From sequence record KP869106: a stretch of DNA of 64,000 nucleotides, one strand, 5' to 3'. This document shows positions 43,174 through 50,406 of the stretch, one piece after another (positions within the stretch are counted from its first letter, which is position 1; each line of letters opens with the position of its first letter). The notes beneath the pieces are model-generated. The model was not told the DNA's origin, made no database searches, and was given only the letters and a program-made list of their open reading frames with translations. Both the position numbers and the translations under genes were made by a program. The stretch is from Escherichia coli O157 typing phage 8.

Positions 43174-43254
43174 TTTTAAAAGATGTTGACAGACTCTATA
43201 AAGTTGCTCTAAAGTCTGTCACATCAAACAACAAATGAGAGAAGAGAGTAAAAT

Positions 43255-44670
43255 ATGAGCGAATTATTTAAACATGCGCACCTTCATGCAGGTCGAACTG
43301 AAAATGGTGCTGTAAACCATACTTCATCAATGTCTGCTCTTGTAGACTTTTACAAAGCTGCTGGTTCAAGCCGTAGCAATGTAGAAATCTTACCAGACCT
43401 GTTCTACAAAGCTTTGCGTGAGGATGTTGATGTTGCAGTTCGTATTTTACTGCATATGCGAGATGTACGAGAAGGTATGGGTGAGCGTAAAGCCTTCAGA
43501 ACTGTTTTACTTCAAGCGATTGAAGACAAAGTTTTAGAGTCTACGCAGGTTCTTCGCATTATGGATAAGATTGCAGAACTTGGTCGTTTTGATGACTTCA
43601 AAATCTTCGTAGGTACTCGTTTCGAGACAGATGCCTTCAAACACTTAGAAGCAGCATTACTAGACCCTGCAACAGCAGGTTTGGCGGCTAAGTGGTTACC
43701 ACGAGTCAAACCACGTCATAAGCAGTTTGTAAAACGTTTCTGCAAGTTTGCCAACTTGAGTGAGAAAGAGTACCGCACACTGTTGTCTGCACTATCTGAT
43801 ACAGTTGAGCAAAAAATCTCTGCTAATGAGTTTGGTAAGATTGACTACAGTAAGATTCCTTCACTTGCTGCTGCACGTTACCAAAAACTGTTTAACCGTA
43901 AAGATGGAGAGCGTTACAAAGCTTACATCGAGTCCTTATCAAAAGGTGAGACTAAGATTAACGCTGGTGCTGTTTACCCATACGATGTGATTAAATCTGT
44001 CAAGTATGGTAATGCAGATGTTGCTAATGAGCAGTGGAAAGCACTACCAAACTGGATGGCAGAAGGTGAAAACATCTTGTGTATGTCTGATGTATCAAGT
44101 TCAATGTCTTGGGTGAATTTTGGCTCCATTACTGCTCTGGATATTGGTGTATCACTTGCCTTGTATGTAGCAGAACGCAATACAGGTTGCTTTAAGAATG
44201 AGTTGATGGTTTATTCGACAAACCCTCACTTCATCGAACTGAGTGGTGATTTACGAAACCGTCATCGTCAGGTGATGCGACACGTTGAATATGGCTCAAC
44301 TAACTTACAAGCAGCTTTTGACCGCATTCTTGAAACAGGTAAAAGAAACAACTTGACTCAGAAAGATATGCCAAGTAAGCTTATCATCTTCTCCGATATG
44401 GAGTTTAATCAGGTTGATGGAGCTAACGGTCGTACAAACTTTGAAGCAATTCAGAGTAAGTACAAAAAAGCTGGATATGAGATGCCACAACTGGTATTCT
44501 GGTACTTAGCAAACCGTAATGGTACTTGCGAAGTATCTGTTAAGGATAACGGTGTAGCAATGGTATCAGGGTTCTCTCCAGCCACTTTAAAAGCTCTGCT
44601 TGGTGGTGAGAAGTTTGACCCAATCAGTGTAATGCTCAAAGCAGTAATGATTGACCGTTATATCTGGTAA
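43255..44670 (+). CDS. vWA-domain protein, Ro60/TROVE-like (tentative)
   Basis: MIDAS-like CMSDVSSSMS, then IIFSDMEFNQ and VAMVSGFSPATLKAL, resembling the Ro60 C-terminal vWA region as recalled; directly upstream of the tRNA cluster. Confidence 0.45.
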   Translation: MSELFKHAHLHAGRTENGAVNHTSSMSALVDFYKAAGSSRSNVEILPDLFYKALREDVDVAVRILLHMRDVREGMGERKAFRTVLLQAIEDKVLESTQVLRIMDKIAELGRFDDFKIFVGTRFETDAFKHLEAALLDPATAGLAAKWLPRVKPRHKQFVKRFCKFANLSEKEYRTLLSALSDTVEQKISANEFGKIDYSKIPSLAAARYQKLFNRKDGERYKAYIESLSKGETKINAGAVYPYDVIKSVKYGNADVANEQWKALPNWMAEGENILCMSDVSSSMSWVNFGSITALDIGVSLALYVAERNTGCFKNELMVYSTNPHFIELSGDLRNRHRQVMRHVEYGSTNLQAAFDRILETGKRNNLTQKDMPSKLIIFSDMEFNQVDGANGRTNFEAIQSKYKKAGYEMPQLVFWYLANRNGTCEVSVKDNGVAMVSGFSPATLKALLGGEKFDPISVMLKAVMIDRYIW

Positions 44671-44688: not shown

Positions 44689-44717
44689 TTGACAATGTGT
44701 TTAATACCCTTTAATAT
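44689..44717 (+). promoter_or_regulatory. sigma70-like promoter TTGACA-17-TAATAT upstream of tRNA cluster
   Basis: Consensus -35 with 17 bp spacer. Confidence 0.5.
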
Positions 44718-44835
44718 GTTCTACATAGAAACGAAATGAGAGCTTTTCTAAGATGCTGAAAAATATTTTAAAAAAGTTCTTGACAACCACTAAAAAATAA
44801 TGTTAAAGTGGTTACATAGAGTTTGAAAAGTTTAT

Positions 44836-44912
44836 CTCTGTTTAGCTCAGCTTGGTAGAGCGTTCCGTTTGGGGCGGTAAGGCCGGAGGTTCAAGTCCTC
44901 CAACAGAGACCA
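44836..44912 (+). tRNA. tRNA-Pro (anticodon UGG)
   Basis: Cloverleaf by eye: acceptor CTCTGTT/AACAGAG, anticodon loop TTTGGGG, T-loop TTCAAGT, CCA encoded. Confidence 0.7.
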
Positions 44913-44919
44913 AATTAAT

Positions 44920-44997
44920 GTTCCAGTAGACAAAATGGTAAAGTCACCACTCTTTCAAAGTGGATATCTGAGGGTTCAAATCCCTTCTGGAACGCCA
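44920..44997 (+). tRNA. tRNA-Glu (anticodon UUC)
   Basis: Acceptor GTTCCAG/CTGGAAC, anticodon stem CCACT/AGTGG, loop CTTTCAA, CCA encoded. Confidence 0.65.
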
Positions 44998-45004
44998 GTT
45001 TTGA

Positions 45005-45076
45005 CAGAAGACCAATTACAGCAAACTTAATCTACTCATCTGAAAGTTAATCGGACAAAGAAGATATTTGGTCTGG
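45005..45076 (+). repeat. inter-tRNA repeat element: CAGAAGACC-N-TTACAGCAA ... GGTCTGG
   Basis: One of 5 related copies; may contain a TTGACA promoter or be a small RNA / processing hairpin. Confidence 0.4.
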
Positions 45077-45087
45077 TCATTAAGAAT

Positions 45088-45164
45088 TGCGGGTATAGAG
45101 AAAGGGCGTCTCACATGTCTCATTAGCATGGTATCGGCAGGTTCGACTCCTGCACCCGCCTCCA
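45088..45164 (+). tRNA. tRNA-Met-like (anticodon CAU), atypical
   Basis: Anticodon stem CATGT/GCATG, loop CTCATTA, T-arm GCAGG-TTCGACT-CCTGC, CCA encoded; 1-72 mismatch and odd D-arm. Confidence 0.45.
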
Positions 45165-45170
45165 AATTTA

Positions 45171-45245
45171 CAGAAGACCGTTTACAGCAATATTTATTAA
45201 ATTTTTAGCGGAAAAAATTGAAAGATACGGTCTGGTAATACTAAA
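45171..45245 (+). repeat. inter-tRNA repeat element (copy 2)
   Basis: TTACAGAAGACCGTTTACAGCAA nearly identical to the copy at 45650. Confidence 0.4.
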
Positions 45246-45248
45246 CAT

Positions 45249-45325
45249 GGTTAGGAAGCACATAAGGTATGTGCGGTCGCCTGTTAAGCGAATGGCACAG
45301 GGTTCGAATCCCTGACTAACCGCCA
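45249..45325 (+). tRNA. tRNA-Asn (anticodon GUU)
   Basis: T-arm CAGGG-TTCGAAT-CCCTG, anticodon loop CTGTTAA, CCA encoded. Confidence 0.6.
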
Positions 45326-45334
45326 AATTTAAAT

Positions 45335-45422
45335 GTGTCGTTATCCCGTAGATGGTAGCGGTGGGGACTGTAAATCCCTTGTCATTGAGACTCGGTAGGT
45401 TCGACTCCTACACGGCACACCA
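45335..45422 (+). tRNA. tRNA-Tyr (anticodon GUA), long variable arm
   Basis: Acceptor GTGTCGT/ACGGCAC, anticodon loop CTGTAAA, T-arm GTAGG-TTCGACT-CCTAC, 88 nt. Confidence 0.6.
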
Positions 45423-45427
45423 ATAAA

Positions 45428-45505
45428 GGTTATGTAGTTTAATCTGGTTAAAATACTCCCCTGTCACGGGAGATGATGAGGGTTCGAATCCCTTCGTAAC
45501 CGCCA
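45428..45505 (+). tRNA. tRNA-Asp (anticodon GUC)
   Basis: Anticodon stem CTCCC/GGGAG, loop CTGTCAC, T-loop TTCGAAT, CCA encoded. Confidence 0.65.
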
Positions 45506-45566
45506 ATTTTGATAGGGCTATTTAGCCCCTCCCTTAAAGGGTTCTTACGAGTATTCTTTAAAGGAG

Positions 45567-45640
45567 CAGAAGACCAAATTCAGCAAGTTACTTAAAATTT
45601 CAAGCCAATTTAATTTTGAAAAATTTAAAACTTGGTCTGG
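45567..45640 (+). repeat. inter-tRNA repeat element (copy 3)
   Basis: GCAGAAGACCAAATTCAGCAA ... GGTCTGG. Confidence 0.4.
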
Positions 45641-45653
45641 CTCAACAAATTTA

Positions 45654-45785
45654 CAGAAGACCGTTTACAGCAAAACTTAAACAATCTATTTCTCCGGTAA
45701 AGAAAAGGCGAAGGTTCGATTCCTTCACTCGGCAGATGTCGAGTTGGTGTAATGGTAGCACTTAAGATGATAAACAACGGTCTGG
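45654..45785 (+). repeat. inter-tRNA repeat element (copy 4) enclosing an isolated T-arm-like hairpin
   Basis: CAGAAGACCGTTTACAGCAA ... GAAGG-TTCGATT-CCTTC then ACTCGGC-AGAT-GTCGAGT hairpin ... GGTCTGG; no complete cloverleaf. Confidence 0.35.
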
Positions 45786-45934
45786 TAATTACCTTTGTAG
45801 ATAAGTTATTAAGCTTACTTGTGAGTATGCGACCACAAAGGGTGAATGGGTAAATTCTAGATTTAAACCCAAAAAGGCACATCGCTACAGACCTTAAGCA
45901 AGTCTGGGTAGCTTATCTACAAAGATAATTTAAT

Positions 45935-46010
45935 GGAAGTGTAGCAGAATGGTGATGCGGCAGACTTTTAATCTGACAGGCGATGGGTTCGAATCCCTCC
46001 ACTTCTACCA
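45935..46010 (+). tRNA. tRNA-Lys-like (anticodon UUU), non-canonical T-stem
   Basis: Acceptor GGAAGTG/CACTTCT, anticodon loop CTTTTAA, T-loop TTCGAAT with only about 3 bp T-stem, CCA encoded. Confidence 0.45.
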
Positions 46011-46014
46011 ATAT

Positions 46015-46091
46015 GGTTCAGTCGCAGATAAGGTAATGCAAGGGTCTCATAAGCCCTATGAATGTGGGTTCGATTCCCATCTGAACCTCCA
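46015..46091 (+). tRNA. tRNA with anticodon CAU (Met or Ile2)
   Basis: Acceptor GGTTCAG/CTGAACC, anticodon stem AGGGT/GCCCT, loop CTCATAA, T-loop TTCGATT, CCA encoded. Confidence 0.6.
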
Positions 46092-46092
46092 A

Positions 46093-46168
46093 GCTGGTAT
46101 AGTTAAGAAGGTTATAACACTCCCCTGATAAGGGAACATCGGTGGTTCGATTCCACCTACCAGTACCA
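46093..46168 (+). tRNA. tRNA-Ile (anticodon GAU)
   Basis: Anticodon loop CTGATAA, T-arm GGTGG-TTCGATT-CCACC, CCA encoded. Confidence 0.65.
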
Positions 46169-46183
46169 ATTTCAATAAAGTTG

Positions 46184-46212
46184 TTGACATTGAGATGTGA
46201 CTACTTTATAGT
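46184..46212 (+). promoter_or_regulatory. sigma70-like promoter TTGACA-17-TATAGT inside tRNA cluster
   Basis: Consensus -35 and near-consensus -10 with 17 bp spacer. Confidence 0.55.
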
Positions 46213-46426
46213 AACCTTAGTTTTCGTTGCGTAGCGTCTATTTTGCAAATTTAAAATAAATGCAAACGACAATGTTTTTCTGGCAGTAGCTTGATAGGCT
46301 AAACACCAGTGAGGTCTTCCAATCCCTCATCAAAGAATTTGGCGTACTAGCCCACGGTATGATTAATAAGGTGGGCATCTTTAAGGGCTTTCTAAGAGAG
46401 TCTTTAAAGATAATTACGGGGCGTAT

Positions 46427-46508
46427 CTCAGCGGTCTTCTAAACCGCCGTTAACCGAGTAAGTGGAGTATGCGGGTTCGAGTCCTGCCGCCTCGACCAAT
46501 TTAGTTAG
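46427..46508 (+). ncRNA. tRNA-like RNA with aberrant architecture (pseudo-tRNA or Y-RNA-like candidate)
   Basis: Acceptor CGGGGCG/CGCCTCG, T-arm GCGGG-TTCGAGT-CCTGC, CCA encoded, hairpin GCGGT-CTTCTAA-ACCGC, but no D-arm and a 23 nt extra region. Confidence 0.4.
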
Positions 46509-46647
46509 CAGATTACTTAGACGACCTAAACGGGTCTTCCTGTAGGGAGGTGGTCTGTATCTCATGTTTTCCAGAACATGTAAATAATCTGAGAAGGGGC
46601 TTTACAGTGTTGAGATAATACGGTAAGCTTTGAATTATAGTTTTAAT

Positions 46648-46718
46648 AGGGGTGAGCTATGGCAGCAATAGAGTCTCCAAAATTCTTGATTAGAGTTCGA
46701 ATCTCTACACCCCTGCCA
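46648..46718 (+). ncRNA. tRNA-like RNA with degenerate anticodon arm
   Basis: Acceptor AGGGGTG/CACCCCT, D-arm CTAT...ATAG, T-arm TAGAG-TTCGAAT-CTCTA, but only about 19 nt with no good helix where the anticodon arm should be. Confidence 0.4.
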
Positions 46719-46732
46719 GAACAGGTGCTTGT

Positions 46733-47137
46733 ATGAAACTTTGTAGAAAATGTTCTCAAGAAAAGCCTTTAAGCTGCTTTCATAAAAGAGGTAATGGCTA
46801 TCAGTCTGCTTGTAAAGATTGTAAAGCTAAGTACTCAGCAAAGAGATACAAAGAAGACCCTACTTATAAAGCAAAAAGAAAAGTTAGGGCAAAATATGAC
46901 AAAAAGAGGAACAGAGAGTTCCTTAGTAGATATAAAAAGTTTTGCAAATGCAGAATATGTGGCGAATCTGAGCCAGTAGCTTTGGATTTTCATCACTTAG
47001 ACCCTAAAGAGAAAGATTTTGCTCCAAGCAATCTTAAAACTTACTCTAGAGGCACTATTAAGCGTGAAGTCCGTAAGTGTGTTGTGCTTTGTTCAAACTG
47101 TCATAGGAAAGTTCATGCAGGACTGTTAAGTATTTAA
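46733..47137 (+). CDS. HNH homing endonuclease embedded in tRNA cluster
   Basis: Cys-rich N-terminal zinc-finger-like region; HNH core FHHLDPKEKDF...CVVLCSNCHRKVH. Confidence 0.75.
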   Translation: MKLCRKCSQEKPLSCFHKRGNGYQSACKDCKAKYSAKRYKEDPTYKAKRKVRAKYDKKRNREFLSRYKKFCKCRICGESEPVALDFHHLDPKEKDFAPSNLKTYSRGTIKREVRKCVVLCSNCHRKVHAGLLSI

Positions 47138-47150
47138 CAGTCTTATTAGG

Positions 47151-47238
47151 GGTAGGTAGCGGCTAATGGCAGCCAAACAGTCTTGAAAACTGTTGCCACT
47201 GTAGAGATACGGTGAGGGTTCGACTCCTTTACTTACCG
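47151..47238 (+). tRNA. tRNA-Ser (anticodon UGA), long variable arm, CCA not encoded
   Basis: Acceptor GGTAGGT/ACTTACC, anticodon stem ACAGT/ACTGT, loop CTTGAAA, T-loop TTCGACT. Confidence 0.55.
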
Positions 47239-47394
47239 CCTAATAAGATTTACTCCGTCCATGCTTGTTCGCATTGTCGGTTTATCCCTCGTGTATTGTC
47301 GTACACTGTCAAAGCACCTAGTAGGTGTCACGGAGAAGAGATAATATCAAGCTCTCCAAAGGTTCTAGTCACCGGATTAAACAAGACTATGCAA

Positions 47395-47415
47395 AGACCT
47401 ATTTAGGTCTTTTTA
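47395..47415 (+). terminator. intrinsic terminator
   Basis: AGACCT-ATTT-AGGTCT followed by TTTTT. Confidence 0.5.
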
Positions 47416-47494
47416 GAGGGCTTCTAAGGTTATTAGTCGCTTGTTGTGGAACCTTGTTGCTCAGGTTCTTAGAAGTTCTCTAAAAAGATTTAAT

Positions 47495-47571
47495 GCACCT
47501 ATAGCCCAACTGGTAGAGGCAGCAGACTTAGAATCTGCTCAGTGTGAGTTCGAATCTCTCTAGGTGTACCA
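47495..47571 (+). tRNA. tRNA with anticodon UAG (Leu by anticodon) but class-I length
   Basis: Acceptor GCACCTA/TAGGTGT, anticodon stem GCAGA/TCTGC, loop CTTAGAA, A73, CCA encoded. Confidence 0.5.
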
Positions 47572-47578
47572 AATTAAT

Positions 47579-47654
47579 GCAGGTGTAGCAAAATGGTTAT
47601 GCGGCTGACTCTTAATCAGTAAGACGATGGGTTCAATTCCCTCCACCTGTACCA
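47579..47654 (+). tRNA. tRNA-Lys-like (anticodon CUU), non-canonical T-stem
   Basis: Acceptor GCAGGTG/CACCTGT, anticodon stem GCTGA/TCAGT, loop CTCTTAA, T-loop TTCAATT, CCA encoded. Confidence 0.5.
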
Positions 47655-47660
47655 AACAAT

Positions 47661-47736
47661 GGGGTCATAGTTTATATGGTTAAAATTCGAGTTTTGCAAA
47701 CTTGGGAACTGAGTTCAATTCTCAGTGACTCCACCA
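47661..47736 (+). tRNA. tRNA-Ala (anticodon UGC)
   Basis: Acceptor GGGGTCA/TGACTCC, anticodon loop TTTGCAA, T-arm CTGAG-TTCAATT-CTCAG, CCA encoded. Confidence 0.65.
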
Positions 47737-47742
47737 ATTAGT

Positions 47743-47817
47743 GCATCCATAGTTTAAACGGGAAAATTACAGTCTTCCAAACTGAGGTTGAGGGTTCGAT
47801 TCCCTCTGGATGCTCCA
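47743..47817 (+). tRNA. tRNA-Gly (anticodon UCC)
   Basis: Acceptor GCATCCA/TGGATGC, anticodon loop CTTCCAA, T-arm GAGGG-TTCGATT-CCCTC, CCA encoded. Confidence 0.65.
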
Positions 47818-47824
47818 AATTAAT

Positions 47825-47900
47825 GCTCCTATCGTATAATTGGTTATTACGGTTGCCTTGTAAGCAACTTATCAGGGTTCGAGTCCTTGTGGGAGCACCA
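47825..47900 (+). tRNA. tRNA-Thr (anticodon UGU)
   Basis: Anticodon stem GTTGC/GCAAC, loop CTTGTAA, T-loop TTCGAGT, CCA encoded. Confidence 0.65.
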
Positions 47901-47904
47901 ATTC

Positions 47905-47990
47905 GGAGGTCAAGTGAAAGACCGCTTTGAGTCAACTGAAGACCGTAACAAATTCCACGAAGTTGAGTTAGCGGCACAACTTCAGACCTC
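47905..47990 (+). repeat. inter-tRNA repeat element (copy 5), long imperfect hairpin
   Basis: GGAGGTC...CTGAAGACCGTAACAAATTCC...CTTCAGACCTC. Confidence 0.4.
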
Positions 47991-47996
47991 TTTCAT

Positions 47997-48071
47997 ACTC
48001 GCTTAGTTTATATGGTAAAACATCACCCTTACAAGATGAAGAAAAAGGTTCAAGTCCTTTAGTGAGTACCA
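47997..48071 (+). tRNA. tRNA-Val (anticodon UAC)
   Basis: Acceptor ACTCGCT/AGTGAGT, D-stem GTTT/AAAC, anticodon loop CTTACAA, T-arm AAAGG-TTCAAGT-CCTTT, CCA encoded. Confidence 0.6.
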
Positions 48072-48072
48072 T

Positions 48073-48150
48073 GTTCCAGTATCCCAATTGGCAGAGGATG
48101 CAAGCTCAAACCTTGTATTAGTGACGGTTCGAATCCGTCTTGGAACACCA
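48073..48150 (+). tRNA. tRNA with anticodon CAA (Leu by anticodon) but class-I length
   Basis: Acceptor GTTCCAG/TTGGAAC, anticodon stem GCAAG/CTTGT, loop CTCAAAC, A73, CCA encoded. Confidence 0.5.
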
Positions 48151-48155
48151 ATTTT

Positions 48156-48231
48156 GCAGGATTAGTTCAAATGGAAAGAGCAACAGTCTACGAAGCTGTT
48201 AATAGGGGTTCGAATCCCTTATCCTGCGCCA
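48156..48231 (+). tRNA. tRNA-Arg (anticodon ACG)
   Basis: Acceptor GCAGGAT/ATCCTGC, anticodon stem ACAGT/GCTGT, loop CTACGAA, T-arm AGGGG-TTCGAAT-CCCTT, CCA encoded. Confidence 0.65.
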
Positions 48232-48248
48232 GATAAAAAGGTGATACT

Positions 48249-48491
48249 ATGCAAACATTAACAGTAGTTGAACATGAAAACTGTGAGAGTATTGAGTTTG
48301 TCAGGGTCATTGGTGTTGAACACCACATTTTCTTAAAAGTGGGATACTTATGTGACCCCACTAGAGTAGAAAGATTTATACGTGATTGTTTTGGTGGTAG
48401 ACATCTGAAGAGTGTTATTTTTGAGACAGTTTTACCAGAAGGTTTAGAAACGAATAATAACATTTACCTCCTTACGAGGATTAGACAATGA
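48249..48491 (+). CDS. hypothetical protein embedded in tRNA cluster
   Basis: 80 aa ORF in-line with downstream ORF. Confidence 0.35.
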   Translation: MQTLTVVEHENCESIEFVRVIGVEHHIFLKVGYLCDPTRVERFIRDCFGGRHLKSVIFETVLPEGLETNNNIYLLTRIRQ

Positions 48492-49045
48492 GATACTTAA
48501 AGTATGCTTCATGGATTTTCTTAGCTTTGTTAGAGCCATTTGCAGCAATCTTAGCAGTTATCTTAGCACCTTTTGTAGTTCCATTCTACAGTGAGAAGAA
48601 AGGACACTTGCCTTTCGGGTTCAGATGGATGGAGACTTATGACAACCCAATTGATGGTGATGCAGGTCATATCAAACGATGGGCTAAGATTAGAAAGATT
48701 GGTAAGCTTGGTGTCTACATGCAGAGAGTTGGATGGCTCTGGAGAAACAAAGCTTATAACTTCTCTTACCATGTATTAGGAAGAGATGTAAAAGATGTTA
48801 CTAAGTGGAAAGGTAATATCAACGTAAGTTCTAACCCTGAAGATAATCAGACTGGTTATCTCCTAATGTGGAACAGTAATGCTTGGGGGTTATTCGCTTT
48901 TGTGCCGTCAATCAAAATCTTTGGTAAACAATTTTACTGGAGAATTTATATTGGGTGGAAACTTAAAAGCGTTGTCCCAGAAGAAAGAGCATTTTCAAGG
49001 GAAAGAGTTATGTTGGCATTCTTTATTCATCCACTAAGAAAGTAA
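48488..49045 (+). CDS. hypothetical membrane protein embedded in tRNA cluster
   Basis: 185 aa, N-terminal hydrophobic helix, Trp/aromatic-rich. Confidence 0.45.
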   Translation: MRYLKYASWIFLALLEPFAAILAVILAPFVVPFYSEKKGHLPFGFRWMETYDNPIDGDAGHIKRWAKIRKIGKLGVYMQRVGWLWRNKAYNFSYHVLGRDVKDVTKWKGNINVSSNPEDNQTGYLLMWNSNAWGLFAFVPSIKIFGKQFYWRIYIGWKLKSVVPEERAFSRERVMLAFFIHPLRK

Positions 49046-49053
49046 AGATTTAA

Positions 49054-49129
49054 AGGGGATTAGTTTACAAGGTTAAAACCTCGGTCTTTGAAATCGAAGA
49101 AGTTGGTTCAATTCCAACATCCCCCGCCA
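49054..49129 (+). tRNA. tRNA-Gln (anticodon UUG)
   Basis: Acceptor AGGGGAT/ATCCCCC with weak 1-72 pair, anticodon loop CTTTGAA, T-arm GTTGG-TTCAATT-CCAAC, CCA encoded. Confidence 0.6.
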
Positions 49130-49131
49130 AT

Positions 49132-49210
49132 GCTCCATTACTCCAATTGGCAGAGAGGCCAGACTTAAAATCTGTGTTATGTATCGGTTCGAATCCGATA
49201 TGGAGTACCA
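49132..49210 (+). tRNA. tRNA with anticodon UAA (Leu by anticodon), short variable region
   Basis: Acceptor GCTCCAT/ATGGAGT, anticodon loop CTTAAAA, T-arm ATCGG-TTCGAAT-CCGAT, A73, CCA encoded. Confidence 0.5.
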
Positions 49211-49215
49211 AATTT

Positions 49216-49291
49216 AGCGGTATAGCATAACTGGCAATGCAGCAGTCTCTGAAGCTGTCCTATTAAGGTTCAAATCCTTATGCCGCTGCCA
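49216..49291 (+). tRNA. tRNA-Gln (anticodon CUG)
   Basis: Acceptor AGCGGTA/TGCCGCT, D-stem GCAT/ATGC, anticodon loop CTCTGAA, T-arm TAAGG-TTCAAAT-CCTTA, CCA encoded. Confidence 0.6.
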
Positions 49292-49322
49292 CTTCTAAGG
49301 ATTCTTACGAGAGTCCTTAAAT

Positions 49323-49398
49323 GTGGCCTTATCATAAATGGTAATGACCCATGCTGTGAACATGGTCTATACGGGTTCAAATCCCGTAGGTCACCCCA
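49323..49398 (+). tRNA. tRNA-His (anticodon GUG)
   Basis: D-stem TCAT/ATGA, anticodon stem CCATG/CATGG, loop CTGTGAA, C73, CCA encoded. Confidence 0.65.
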
Positions 49399-49403
49399 AT
49401 TTA

Positions 49404-49479
49404 TAGTCCAAGTAGCTTATATGGTTAAAGCGCGTGTCTGAAAAACATGAGAAGAGGGTTCAAATCCCACTGGACTACC
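49404..49479 (+). tRNA. tRNA-Phe (anticodon GAA)
   Basis: Anticodon stem CGTGT/ACATG, loop CTGAAAA, T-loop TTCAAAT; acceptor register ambiguous. Confidence 0.5.
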
Positions 49480-50231
49480 AATTTCAAAGGTGCTTAATGA
49501 AAGAGATGACAGAACAAGGTAAGGAGATTTTCAATCTCTTAAAAACCGGTAAAGGGTTTTCTAACCCCCTTATTACTGGTGCAGCAGTTCTCGGTGGAAC
49601 CGTAGCTGCCTCTACATCACTTGTAAGCTCTATTAGCTCTGTATCAGACCCTACAGTAAAGGATAAGCTTGTTGCTGCTGGACTTACAACAGTTCTGCTT
49701 AACAGCTTTACCACGAGTCTGACAAGCACTACATCAACTACCAAAACACTAACAGATTACGGTCAAAAGTCCATTGATGAGTTTTCATCACGTATGCAGG
49801 TAGCAAAAGGTTACTCAAATGTTATGGGTGCAGCAGGTGAACAAGTTGGCTGTACACCATTTAGTGGTATTATGGGTGTTGCTACAGAGTATGGTCAAAA
49901 AGCTATTGATACGATTAACAGTGCACTAGATAGTGTTAATGGTGTGTTAAGTGACTTACAAGATGCTATTGACAAAGGTCTTGATACTATTTCTGATTTA
50001 GCTGAGCAAGCTGTTAGTAAGATTAATGAAGGTATTTCAAAAATTACAGCTTATGCAGATGAAGTTGTGCAGATGATTGAAGAAGAAGCTGCTCTTATTG
50101 CAGAGTACCTTAAAACGAATATCAATGGGTTCTTAGCAGGTATCTTACCAGACTGGTTTGATGATGCTTGTAAAACTGGTGTAATTGACACTATTGCAAC
50201 ACCAGAAATGAAGAACGCATTACAGAAATAA
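49434..50231 (+). CDS. hypothetical protein (Ser/Thr/Ala-rich)
   Basis: ORF-track 5' end overlaps tRNA-Phe; true start probably the ATG near 49497 (MKEMTEQ...). Confidence 0.45.
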   Translation: MSEKHEKRVQIPLDYQFQRCLMKEMTEQGKEIFNLLKTGKGFSNPLITGAAVLGGTVAASTSLVSSISSVSDPTVKDKLVAAGLTTVLLNSFTTSLTSTTSTTKTLTDYGQKSIDEFSSRMQVAKGYSNVMGAAGEQVGCTPFSGIMGVATEYGQKAIDTINSALDSVNGVLSDLQDAIDKGLDTISDLAEQAVSKINEGISKITAYADEVVQMIEEEAALIAEYLKTNINGFLAGILPDWFDDACKTGVIDTIATPEMKNALQK

Positions 50232-50234
50232 ATG

Positions 50235-50326
50235 GAAGATTAACCCTAAAAGGTAAGGGAGCAGTTTGCTAAACTGCCAGTAGCTGAGAAATCGGTGTAC
50301 CAGTTCAAGTCTGGTATCTTCCTCCA
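50235..50326 (+). tRNA. tRNA-Ser (anticodon GCU), long variable arm
   Basis: Acceptor GGAAGAT/ATCTTCC, anticodon stem GCAGT/ACTGC, loop TTGCTAA, ~21 nt variable arm, T-arm ACCAG-TTCAAGT-CTGGT, CCA encoded. Confidence 0.6.
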
Positions 50327-50330
50327 ATTT

Positions 50331-50406
50331 GAATCCGTGACAGAAACGGCTATGTGCCTGTCTGCAAAACAGGTTTATAAGGGTTCGAGTCCCTTCGGAT
50401 TCTCCA
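50331..50406 (+). tRNA. tRNA-Cys (anticodon GCA)
   Basis: Acceptor GAATCCG/CGGATTC, anticodon stem CCTGT/ACAGG, loop CTGCAAA, T-arm AAGGG-TTCGAGT-CCCTT, CCA encoded. Confidence 0.6.

What the first reader, a model, noticed from the sequence alone, without database searches (positions are those of the whole stretch)
45001..47990. Five-member repeat family interspersed among tRNA genes
Five loci (about 45005, 45171, 45567, 45654, 47936) share (C/T)(A/T)GAAGACC followed within a few nt by TTACAGCAA-like sequence, then an AT-rich segment, ending in GGTCTGG or GGTCTC that can pair back to the AGACC core. Two copies share a 27 nt near-identical stretch. Several begin with TTGACA or TTTACA spaced for a promoter. 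They may be promoters, RNase processing hairpins separating tRNA precursors, or small stable RNAs like the unexplained species in the T4 tRNA region. A second conserved word, TTCTTACGAG, occurs at about 45545 and 49300.
Basis: seen in the sequence. Interest (0 to 1): 0.5.

Follow-up and report, generated by a model that had tools for sequence, protein, structure and literature searches.

The report
Y-like RNAs beside phage Ro gene
Four of the five repeats are small structured RNAs, one carrying a rearranged tRNA-like domain; they lie just downstream of a phage gene for a Ro60-like RNA-binding protein, and the same RNA-gene pairing recurs in many unrelated phages and bacteria, so they are most likely that protein's "Y RNA" partners.

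Summary
The window is a Felixounavirus (100% identical to E. coli O157 typing phage 11). Four of the five reported loci form a real family: 45003-45078, 45169-45237, 45565-45642 and 45652-45787, all on the + strand. The fifth (about 47936) is not a member.

Each member has a 3-bp outer helix, an AGA/G internal loop, a 7-8-bp helix AGACCNN/NNGGUCU and the invariant word CAGCAA. The interior is variable.

Copy 4's interior is a circularly permuted tRNA-like domain (V hairpin, T arm, closed acceptor-like hairpin, D arm). This is the architecture of bacterial YrlA Y RNAs.

The gene directly upstream (43255-44670, Pfam DUF2828+DUF7788) is predicted to have a Ro60 fold.

The module 'AGR-stem + CAGCAA + complementary strand' recurs beside homologues of this gene:
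- 85 hits on the gene strand against 2 on the other strand in 80 viral loci;
- 101 against 7 in 80 bacterial contigs.

A covariance model built only from this genus pair finds full-length matches in unrelated phages, and all six helices covary. No Rfam family covers these elements. They lack the canonical Y-RNA CGAA motif.

Best reading: Y-RNA-like partners of a divergent Ro protein, released from the tRNA precursor. Protein binding is inferred, not shown.

The parts
43255..44670 (+). Gene for a Ro60-like RNA-binding protein (wV8 gp047 orthologue, 471 aa): N-terminal helical-repeat part plus C-terminal vWA-like part
   Evidence: Pfam DUF2828 (3.9e-29) and DUF7788 (1.7e-43), with no TROVE hit. 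PHROG 850 'RNA-binding protein'. 33% identity to mycobacteriophage 'Ro-like RNA binding protein'. AlphaFold model with alignment, pLDDT 91. Top Foldseek PDB hits are Ro60 (2i91, 1yvp, 1yvr), Rsr (2nvo) and phage TROVE (9kop), E about 1e-7, TM 0.43-0.65 (query-normalised), spanning the whole protein.
44689..44809 (+). Two sigma-70-like promoters (44689-44717 and 44780-44809) ahead of the first tRNA; likely start of the transcript that carries copies 1-4
   Evidence: Consensus scan gives TTGACA-17-TAATAT and TTGACA-18-TAAAGT, 10 of 12 each. No + strand terminator-like site lies between 44836 and 46170. Function is inferred.
45003..45078 (+). Y-like RNA 1 (short form). Outer helix GAC/GUC; inner helix 45009-45015 with 45068-45074; CAGCAA at 45019-45024; AU-rich interior
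   Evidence: Model R1: 36.0 bits, E 1.2e-6. Termini are invariant and the interior is replaced in orthologues.
45169..45237 (+). Y-like RNA 2 (short form). Outer helix UAC/GUA; inner helix 45175-45181 with 45227-45233; CAGCAA at 45185-45190
   Evidence: R1: 44.2 bits, E 1.7e-8.
45565..45642 (+). Y-like RNA 3 (short form). Outer helix AGC/GCU; inner helix 45571-45577 with 45632-45638; CAGCAA at 45581-45586
   Evidence: R1: 23.8 bits, E 6e-4 with filters off.
45652..45787 (+). Y-like RNA 4 (YrlA-like form). Outer helix 45652-54 with 45785-87; inner helix 45658-65 with 45776-83; CAGCAA 45668-73; V hairpin 45689-45705; T arm 45710-26; closed acceptor-like hairpin 45727-44; D arm 45747-61
   Evidence: The minimum-energy fold gives exactly this architecture. 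A descriptor for T arm + hairpin + D arm hits only here in the window. The acceptor-like stem shows compensatory changes in Mooglevirus. All six helices covary across 21 family members.
47934..47996 (+). It shares only GAAGACCGT; its local hairpin is CUGAAG/CUUCAG
45884..45912 (+). Possible fifth, minimal binding module (GCUA-CAGAC-CUUAAGCAA-GUCUG-GG-UAGC) inside a larger structured RNA at 45786-45934
   Evidence: Fold z-score -5.0. Mooglevirus has AAACC-CUUUAGCAA-GGUUU at the same place, and the long closing stem covaries. Tentative.

Best explanation
Copies 1-4 are genes for small non-coding RNAs that work like Y RNAs, the RNA partners of Ro60-type proteins. The likely partner is the Ro60-fold protein encoded immediately upstream.

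Shown by computation:
- The 5' and 3' ends of each RNA pair into a bipartite helix: 3 bp, an AGA/G internal loop, then 7-8 bp of AGACCNN/NNGGUCU.
- The invariant single-stranded word CAGCAA follows the helix 2-3 nt later.
- This terminal module is conserved, while the interior is free to vary.
- In copy 4 the interior is a permuted tRNA-like domain, as in bacterial YrlA.
- The same module sits next to homologues of the protein, on the same strand and often in arrays, in many unrelated phages and bacteria.

Inferred:
(i) The terminal module is the docking site of the Ro-like protein.
(ii) The variable interiors (AU-rich loops, tRNA mimic) recruit or occlude other factors. Examples would be host exoribonucleases such as PNPase, or tRNA-binding enzymes.
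(iii) The RNAs are cut out of the polycistronic tRNA precursor, which starts at the promoters near 44700-44810. RNase P and the 3'-end processing of the flanking tRNAs would do the cutting, and the terminal helix would protect the ends.
(iv) The resulting particle reshapes RNA decay, repair or quality control during infection. It may underlie the anti-defence (anti-Ppl) phenotype reported for what appears to be the homologous gene of the Felixounavirus Bas63.
For: Family and structure:
- Searches show repeats beyond chance.
- One search gives the folds.
- One search shows all four copies kept in place in Felixounavirus and Mooglevirus, with invariant termini, diverged or replaced interiors, and AGACC->AGGCC (a G.U pair).
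- One search shows compensatory changes in the acceptor-like stem.

Protein:
- Searches give the family assignments.
- Searches give a confident model whose best structural matches are Ro60, Rsr and a phage TROVE protein, spanning the whole protein.
- Two papers independently call homologues Ro60/Rsr-like by structure or HHpred.

Association:
- The strict descriptor gives 85 hits on the gene strand, 2 on the opposite strand and 2-3 in shuffles, in 80 viral loci. More than half lie within 500 nt of the gene.
- In 80 bacterial contigs it gives 101 against 7.
- In the 64-kb window it hits only the four copies, on either strand.
- Model R1, built only from this genus pair, finds full-length matches in unrelated loci: L030 at 2.8e-10, L073 at 9e-9, L017 at 4e-8 and others. 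Of 33 matches, 32 are on the gene strand.
- Covariation: 93% of cells paired against 59% when shuffled and about 40% when slid. 27 of 32 pairs carry double changes.

Link to YrlA:
- The architecture matches the published description.
- Rfam YrlA gives sub-threshold but significant hits to the tRNA-like members in other loci: L021 at 4e-5, L073 at 5e-5 and LeBron at 5.5e-6.

Not tRNA-dependent: 14 of 33 element-bearing loci have no tRNA nearby.
Against: - There is no experimental evidence here for discrete RNA species or for protein binding.
- The protein does not hit Pfam TROVE and has no sequence-level PDB match.
- The RNAs lack the GNCGAAN0-1G / CGAA motif that defines bacterial Y RNAs.
- Rfam YrlA does not match the window even at E<=10.
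- About a quarter to a third of the loci with the gene show no element under the relaxed descriptor; under the strict one it is about half of the viral loci.
- The covariation alignment was fitted to the model, which inflates the pairing counts somewhat.
- The link to the Bas63 phenotype assumes that gp130 is the orthologue. I inferred this from its described position and did not check it by sequence.
Confidence: 0.72

Rival explanations
1. They are internal sigma-70 promoters of the tRNA cluster, with TTGACA/TTTACA as the -35 element.
For: TTGACA lies at 45001-45006 and TTTACA lies before copies 2 and 4. The scan lists 45167-45194 as a 9-of-12 match.
Against: - Promoter-like matches in the region are not above chance: 16 found against 12.3 expected.
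- Copy 3 has GGAGCA instead.
- The presumed -10 positions are not conserved among orthologues.
- The 'ACA' letters pair with the 3' tail, and the outer helix they belong to covaries among the copies (GAC/GUC, UAC/GUA, AGC/GCU).
- A transcript starting downstream of such a promoter would lack the 5' strand of a helix that covaries across phyla.
- Family members in other hosts start UAAAGR.
Confidence: 0.05
2. They are protein-independent processing or insulator hairpins. They would guide RNase E, RNase III or RNase P cleavage between tRNAs and then be degraded.
For: In this phage every copy lies between tRNA genes, 5-90 nt from a tRNA end. Other spacers in the cluster are also strongly structured.
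Against: - The same module occurs in loci without any tRNA within 5 kb (14 of 33 viral loci), and only 8 of 65 elements lie within 50 nt of a tRNA.
- The elements track the Ro-like gene and its strand.
- The invariant single-stranded CAGCAA and the permuted tRNA-like domain are not expected of a simple cleavage hairpin.
Confidence: 0.12
3. They are selfish DNA repeats (MITE-like elements with inverted termini, or homing-endonuclease targets). Copy 4 would be a scrambled tRNA pseudogene.
For: The termini are inverted repeats (AGACC...GGTCT) around variable interiors. An HNH endonuclease gene lies in the cluster at 46733-47137.
Against: - There is a strong strand bias relative to a protein gene in hundreds of cases.
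- The helices keep pairing through G.U and compensatory changes, which matter only in RNA.
- The four copies stay at fixed positions across two genera.
- The permuted tRNA-like arrangement recurs independently in unrelated loci.
Confidence: 0.03
4. They are structured RNAs of this conserved family, but the family's partner is not the Ro-like protein. For example, they could be decoys or regulators acting on a host enzyme, merely co-inherited with the gene.
For: Binding is not shown. The canonical Ro-binding motif is absent. Some family members enclose complete tRNAs, which hints at a role in tRNA metabolism.
Against: Tight linkage, shared orientation and multi-copy arrays next to the gene span Proteobacteria, Firmicutes, Actinobacteria phages and marine contigs. 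Mini versions overlap the gene's own ribosome-binding region in six of the fetched viral loci. This is what one expects of a protein and its RNA ligand.
Confidence: 0.08

Closest known systems
Bacterial Y RNAs YrlA and YrlB of Salmonella Typhimurium (Rfam RF02553; Chen et al. 2014, PMC4201824)
   Same: - Encoded next to a Ro60-type gene and on the same strand.
- The 5' and 3' ends pair into a stem.
- One long form has a permuted tRNA-like domain (V, T, closed acceptor stem, D), and shorter forms lack it.
- A short conserved single-stranded motif lies near the 5' strand.
   Different: - The conserved motif is CAGCAA, not GNCGAAN0-1G.
- The Rfam model does not match the window and matches relatives only below threshold.
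- The partner protein is Pfam DUF2828/DUF7788, not TROVE.
- There are four copies, embedded in a tRNA operon.
Thermus phage phiLo Ro60 with Yrl1/Yrl2 (PMC12135203)
   Same: A phage-encoded Ro60-fold protein with several Y-like RNAs encoded beside it. The protein structure (9kop) is among the best fold matches.
   Different: phiLo's protein is a sequence-recognisable TROVE protein, and its RNAs carry the CGAA motif. Here both the protein and the RNA motif are divergent.
Metazoan Y RNAs bound by Ro60
   Same: A terminal helix interrupted by a bulge or internal loop serves as the protein-binding module, next to a variable loop domain. The Ro60 fold matches.
   Different: There is no sequence similarity to the GGUCCGA helix. 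The tRNA-like domain is absent in animals.
Bas63 (Felixounavirus) gp130, reported as Ro60-like and as a counter of the Ppl defence (PMC11482910)
   Same: Same genus and the same position directly upstream of the tRNA stretch. The authors predicted that Y RNAs hide among the tRNA genes.
   Different: They did not identify any RNA. The elements found here lie between the tRNAs and are not tRNA genes. I did not verify orthology by sequence.
T4 stable RNAs 'species 1 and 2' in the tRNA region (from my own knowledge, not tested)
   Same: Small stable RNAs of unknown function encoded within a phage tRNA cluster.
   Different: No sequence or structure comparison was made. T4 is not known to encode a Ro-like protein.

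Membership tests
Bacterial Y RNA, YrlA type (Rfam RF02553) | Encoded within a few kb of a Ro60 orthologue, on the same strand | tested here: met
   Copies lie 333-982 nt downstream of the Ro60-fold gene, on the same strand. The protein is Ro60-like by fold only.
Bacterial Y RNA, YrlA type (Rfam RF02553) | 5' and 3' ends pair into a stem that closes the molecule | tested here: met
Bacterial Y RNA, YrlA type (Rfam RF02553) | tRNA-like domain in the order V, T arm, closed acceptor-like stem-loop, D arm | tested here: met
   Copy 4 only. Copies 1-3 lack it, as YrlB does.
Bacterial Y RNA, YrlA type (Rfam RF02553) | GNCGAAN0-1G motif near the 5' end | tested here: not met
   The sequence has (U/A)U(U/A)CAGCAA instead.
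Bacterial Y RNA, YrlA type (Rfam RF02553) | Reaches the Rfam gathering score (69 bits) | tested here: not met
   No YrlA match in the window at E<=10. Relatives in other loci score 29-40 bits.
Bacterial Y RNA, YrlA type (Rfam RF02553) | Bound by the Ro protein; carries tRNA-type modifications (pseudouridine 55, dihydrouridine) | not testable with these tools
   Needs immunoprecipitation and modification mapping.
Ro60 / TROVE proteins (for the 43255-44670 product) | Pfam TROVE domain detectable by sequence | tested here: not met
   Only DUF2828 and DUF7788 are hit. A profile search of PDB sequences gives TROVE at E 2.2, which is not significant.
Ro60 / TROVE proteins (for the 43255-44670 product) | Helical-repeat ring plus C-terminal vWA domain fold | tested here: met
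   Model pLDDT 91. Ro60, Rsr and phage TROVE structures are the top ten matches, with alignments spanning the whole protein (TM 0.43-0.65, query-normalised). vWA domains follow.
DUF2828-associated 'CAGCAA' RNAs (family defined here) | Helix starting (A)AGR, then 0-4 nt, then CAGCAA, a variable interior, and a complementary strand ending YCU(U) followed by G | tested here: met
   Copies 1-4 are the only strict hits in the window on either strand. The consensus comes from 203 distinct elements.
DUF2828-associated 'CAGCAA' RNAs (family defined here) | Matched by a covariance model across unrelated loci | tested here: met
   R1 was built from this genus pair only and gives significant full-length hits in L030, L073, L017, L025, L021, L057, L080, L013, L035 and LeBron/Lolly9.
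Sigma-70 promoter | Conserved -35 and -10 hexamers with 16-18 nt spacing | tested here: not met
   Only copy 2 reaches 9 of 12. The -10 positions vary among orthologues.

The most novel reading that the evidence does not exclude
DUF2828 proteins and their 'CAGCAA-stem' RNAs form a large, so far undescribed branch of the Ro/Y-RNA world, spread through phages of many hosts and through bacterial genomes. It would have its own protein-binding module and a modular cargo: AU-rich loops, permuted tRNA mimics, even whole tRNAs. Mini copies of the module in the protein's own 5' leader would act as autoregulatory operators. In Felixounaviruses this particle would be the agent behind the reported escape from the Ppl defence system.
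Probability: 0.45. Interest if true: 0.78.

Novelty: new variant of a known kind. Interest (0 to 1): 0.62.

Why it matters
Ro60-Y RNA particles are conserved from bacteria to humans, but their RNA partners are known for only one sequence-recognisable protein family. This finding turns an unexplained repeat in a well-studied phage genus into four concrete candidate RNA partners for a gene that has been called Ro60-like. One preprint links a gene described as Ro60-like, at the same position in another Felixounavirus, to anti-defence activity and explicitly predicted hidden Y RNAs.

The finding also gives a simple signature (AGR-stem, CAGCAA, complementary strand). That signature picks out about 200 distinct elements next to homologous genes in 110 of 155 phage and bacterial loci examined. 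None of them is covered by Rfam.

The questions 'what do phage Ro proteins bind, and what do they do?' become directly testable with binding assays, deletion mutants and small-RNA sequencing.

Tried and rejected
- Rfam at gathering and at permissive thresholds found only tRNAs in the window. There was no YrlA or other family at the repeats.
- Structure prediction of the protein without an alignment was useless, pLDDT 44. It was repeated with 61 homologues.
- Sequence searches of the PDB with the single protein and with a profile gave nothing significant.
- NCBIfam gave nothing.
- MAFFT alignments of tRNA-like members from unrelated loci (A2, A3) misaligned the acceptor-like and D arms. RNAalifold recovered only the closing stem and the T arm. 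I therefore built the model from the well-aligned genus-level set and used it outward.
- A mini operator upstream of the window's own Ro-like gene, as seen in other loci, is not present. Only a promoter-overlapping hairpin at 43188-43222 is there.
- The Chen 2014 supplement listing phages is not held, and the 2020 Annual Review is not held. I therefore could not check whether any DUF2828-type phage was in their set.
- Literature searches for DUF2828, Ro-like plus phage, Felixounavirus plus ncRNA, and Ro60 plus Bas63 found no description of these RNAs.
- I considered and rejected promoters, terminators (no U tract), small ORFs (only spurious overlapping ORFs) and tRNA pseudogene debris.

Full report
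WHAT THE WINDOW IS. The region is 100% identical to E. coli O157 typing phage 11 and 99.9% identical to phage wV8 (Felixounavirus, Ounavirinae). Positions 44836-50406 hold 26 tRNA genes, all on the + strand. Rfam adds one more weak tRNA at 46417-46495.

CHECK OF THE OBSERVATION. Four of the five loci are a real family.
- The repeat finder groups 45005, 45171, 45567 and 45654 (D14/D15).
- The pattern GAAGACC-N2-6-ACARCAA has 3 exact matches against 0.01 expected.
- Copies 2 and 4 share 28 identical bases.
- Each copy ends in NNGGTCTGG, complementary to AGACCNN.
- The fifth locus (47934-47996) shares only GAAGACCGT. It has no CAGCAA and no GGTCT, folds as an unrelated CUGAAG/CUUCAG hairpin, and is not matched by the family model at E<=10.
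- The second word, TTCTTACGAG, is exact at 45542 and 49302. Its core occurs 4 times against 0.86 expected. It caps hairpins with a UACG tetraloop and is a separate, minor feature.

ANATOMY. Each true copy has the following parts, in order:
- a 3-bp outer helix that differs between copies but always pairs: GAC/GUC in copy 1, UAC/GUA in copies 2 and 4, AGC/GCU in copy 3;
- an asymmetric internal loop, AGA opposite G;
- a 7-8-bp inner helix, AGACC+NN with NN+GGUCU, where NN is AA/UU or GU/AC;
- 2-3 nt and then the invariant CAGCAA;
- a variable interior.

Copies 1-3 (76, 69 and 78 nt) have AU-rich, weakly structured interiors. Copy 4 (136 nt) folds at minimum energy into a small hairpin, a T arm (GAAGG-UUCGAUU-CCUUC), a closed 7-bp acceptor-like hairpin (ACUCGGC-AGAU-GUCGAGU) and a D arm (GUGU-AAUGGUA-GCAC). 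This is a tRNA whose acceptor stem is closed by a loop and which opens where the anticodon stem would be. It is exactly the architecture published for the bacterial Y RNA YrlA.

THE NEIGHBOUR. The gene ending 333 nt upstream (43255-44670) matches Pfam DUF2828 and DUF7788, not TROVE. It is 33% identical to proteins that mycobacteriophage annotators call 'Ro-like RNA binding protein'. With an alignment of 61 homologues the predicted structure is confident (pLDDT 91). Its ten best PDB matches are Ro60, bacterial Rsr and a phage TROVE protein, with alignments spanning the whole protein (E about 1e-7, TM 0.43-0.65, query-normalised). vWA domains follow. Two papers reached the same view for homologues:
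- Bas63 gp130, a Felixounavirus gene 'directly upstream of a stretch of tRNAs'. It is Ro60-like by structure and is required to overcome the Ppl defence. The authors speculated that some tRNA genes might be Y RNAs.
- Listeria phage CKA15_055, which is Rsr-like by HHpred and has very abundant unannotated transcripts upstream.

CONSERVATION IN CLOSE RELATIVES. In ten Felixounavirus and Mooglevirus genomes all four copies sit at the same positions. The termini are invariant, apart from AGACC->AGGCC, which keeps a G.U pair. The interiors are diverged or wholly replaced. Copy 4's acceptor-like stem changes from ACUCGGC/GUCGAGU to ACACGU/GCGUGU with pairing kept. This is the pattern expected of a constant docking module joined to a variable module.

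THE SAME MODULE ELSEWHERE. I fetched 80 viral contigs and 80 bacterial contigs encoding homologues of the protein.
- A descriptor for 'T arm + closed hairpin + D arm' hit ten of the non-Felixounavirus viral loci, always on the gene strand.
- Looking at their flanks showed the same closing helix and the same word CAGCAA.
- A strict descriptor requires a helix of at least 6 bp starting AGR, then 0-4 nt, then CAGCAA, then 8-220 nt, then the complementary strand.
- In the viral loci this descriptor gives 85 hits on the gene strand, 2 on the other strand and 2-3 in shuffled sequence.
- More than half of the viral hits lie within 500 nt of the gene. Sizes range from 32 to 248 nt, and 19 hits carry a T loop.
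- In the bacterial contigs the count is 101 against 7, mostly in arrays just upstream of the gene, with up to seven in a row.
- With a relaxed descriptor, 51 of 75 viral and 59 of 80 bacterial loci carry at least one element. There are 203 distinct elements in all.
- In the whole 64-kb window, on both strands, the strict descriptor hits only the four copies.
- Mycobacteriophage LeBron has three such elements in the gap after its Ro-like gene, and the middle one is a sub-threshold Rfam YrlA hit.
- Listeria phage List-36 has three in the gap before its gene, with an RtcB-type ligase nearby.

FORMAL TEST. A covariance model (R1) was built only from copy 4 and its Felixounavirus and Mooglevirus orthologues.
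- It finds full-length matches in unrelated loci: L030 at 2.8e-10, L073 at 9e-9, L017 at 4e-8, L025 at 2e-5 and more. Of 33 matches with E<1, 32 are on the gene strand.
- On the model-fitted alignment of 21 members, 93% of cells pair, against 59% in shuffles and about 40% when partners are slid. 27 of 32 pairs carry compensatory changes, and all six helices covary. The fitting favours the structure somewhat, but the margin is large.
- With filters off, R1 scores copies 4, 2, 1 and 3 at 155.8, 44.2, 36.0 and 23.8 bits.

NOT A tRNA-SPACER DEVICE. Fourteen of 33 element-bearing viral loci have no tRNA within 5 kb, and only 8 of 65 elements lie within 50 nt of a tRNA. The common denominator is the Ro-like gene.

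HOW IT MOST LIKELY WORKS.
- Shown: the structural family, its conservation and its linkage to a Ro60-fold gene.
- Inferred by analogy with Ro60 and Y RNAs: the terminal helix plus CAGCAA is the protein's docking site, and the interiors engage other factors.
- Inferred from context: the copies have no strong promoter or terminator of their own, so they ride on the tRNA precursor from the promoters at 44689-44809. They would be freed when the flanking tRNAs are processed.
- The biological role is open. It could be RNA decay or quality control, tRNA protection or repair, or anti-defence.

COMPARISON WITH THE KNOWN. The elements work like YrlA/YrlB but are not members of that family as defined. 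The CGAA-type motif is replaced by CAGCAA. The Rfam model misses the window and reaches relatives only below threshold. The partner protein is not a sequence-detectable TROVE protein. No Rfam family matches the short forms in any locus I scanned. No paper in the held library describes them. I therefore rate this a new variant of a known kind. The idea of phage Ro proteins with Y RNAs is established, and the presence of Y RNAs in this genus was predicted. The actual elements, their distinct signature and their breadth appear to be new.

LIMITS. There are no expression or binding data. The library of papers is incomplete. Orthology with Bas63 gp130 was not verified by sequence. The descriptor misses elements with variant motifs, so the prevalence figures are lower bounds.

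Noticed in passing
window 45786-45934 (+): A 149-nt strongly structured RNA (z -5.0) lies between copy 4 and tRNA-Lys. Its closing stem of about 28 bp keeps pairing through at least four double changes between Felixounavirus and Mooglevirus, while the interior differs. It contains a mini hairpin (45884-45912) with an AGCAA loop that resembles the family's docking module.
   Followed up: partly
window 45529-45566, 48467-48480, 49296-49319 (+): Hairpins are capped by a UACG (UNCG-type) tetraloop and share the word CTTACGAG. Their role is unknown.
   Followed up: partly
window 46417-46495 (+): A tRNA-like gene is found by Rfam only (31.7 bits). ARAGORN misses it and wV8 does not annotate it.
   Followed up: no
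window 46377-46411 and 47403-47493 (+): Long near-perfect hairpins (17 and 26 bp) lie immediately 5' of tRNA genes. The spacers 46170-46416 and 47241-47494 fold far better than shuffles (z -3.9 and -3.4). They may be RNase III sites or further non-coding RNAs.
   Followed up: no
window 46733-47137 (+): An HNH endonuclease ORF (134 aa, weak Pfam HNH hits) is embedded in the tRNA cluster.
   Followed up: no
window 45625-45882 (-): The 85-aa ORF annotated in wV8 as gp048 lies antisense over copy 4 and the structured RNA. It is probably a spurious call.
   Followed up: no
L008 4954-4986, L013 1764-1795, L014 2859-2890, L030 4950-4985, L035 4903-4937, L053 4906-4944: 32-39-nt minimal CAGCAA hairpins end 12-64 nt before the start codon of the Ro-like gene (12-17 nt in four of the six loci), and their 3' tails run into the Shine-Dalgarno sequence. 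This suggests translational autoregulation. No such element precedes the gene in this window.
   Followed up: partly
L164 2665-2773, L163 2827-2922, L050 4734-4833: In some loci the CAGCAA closing helix encloses a complete, non-permuted tRNA or tRNA-like sequence; Rfam calls a tRNA at 43-46 bits in L163 and L164. The docking module can therefore carry whole tRNAs.
   Followed up: no
L169 (Listeria phage List-36) 3119-3385, 3459-4979, 6310-7521: Three tandem CAGCAA elements lie directly upstream of the Ro-like gene, with an RtcB-type 'tRNA splicing ligase' 1.3 kb downstream. This echoes the bacterial rsr-yrlBA-rtcBA arrangement. The CKA15 paper reports the homologous protein in purified virions.
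   Followed up: partly
L017 190-657; L021 10696-10922: Near the Ro-like gene in other phage contigs there is a GOLLD-like RNA match (117 bits, below the 150-bit threshold) and a group I intron (71.5 bits).
   Followed up: no
window 43188-43222 (+): An 8-bp hairpin GACAGACU...AGUCUGUC overlaps a TTGACA promoter-like site just upstream of the Ro-like gene. Its stem resembles the AGAC/GUCU core of the repeats but lacks CAGCAA.
   Followed up: no
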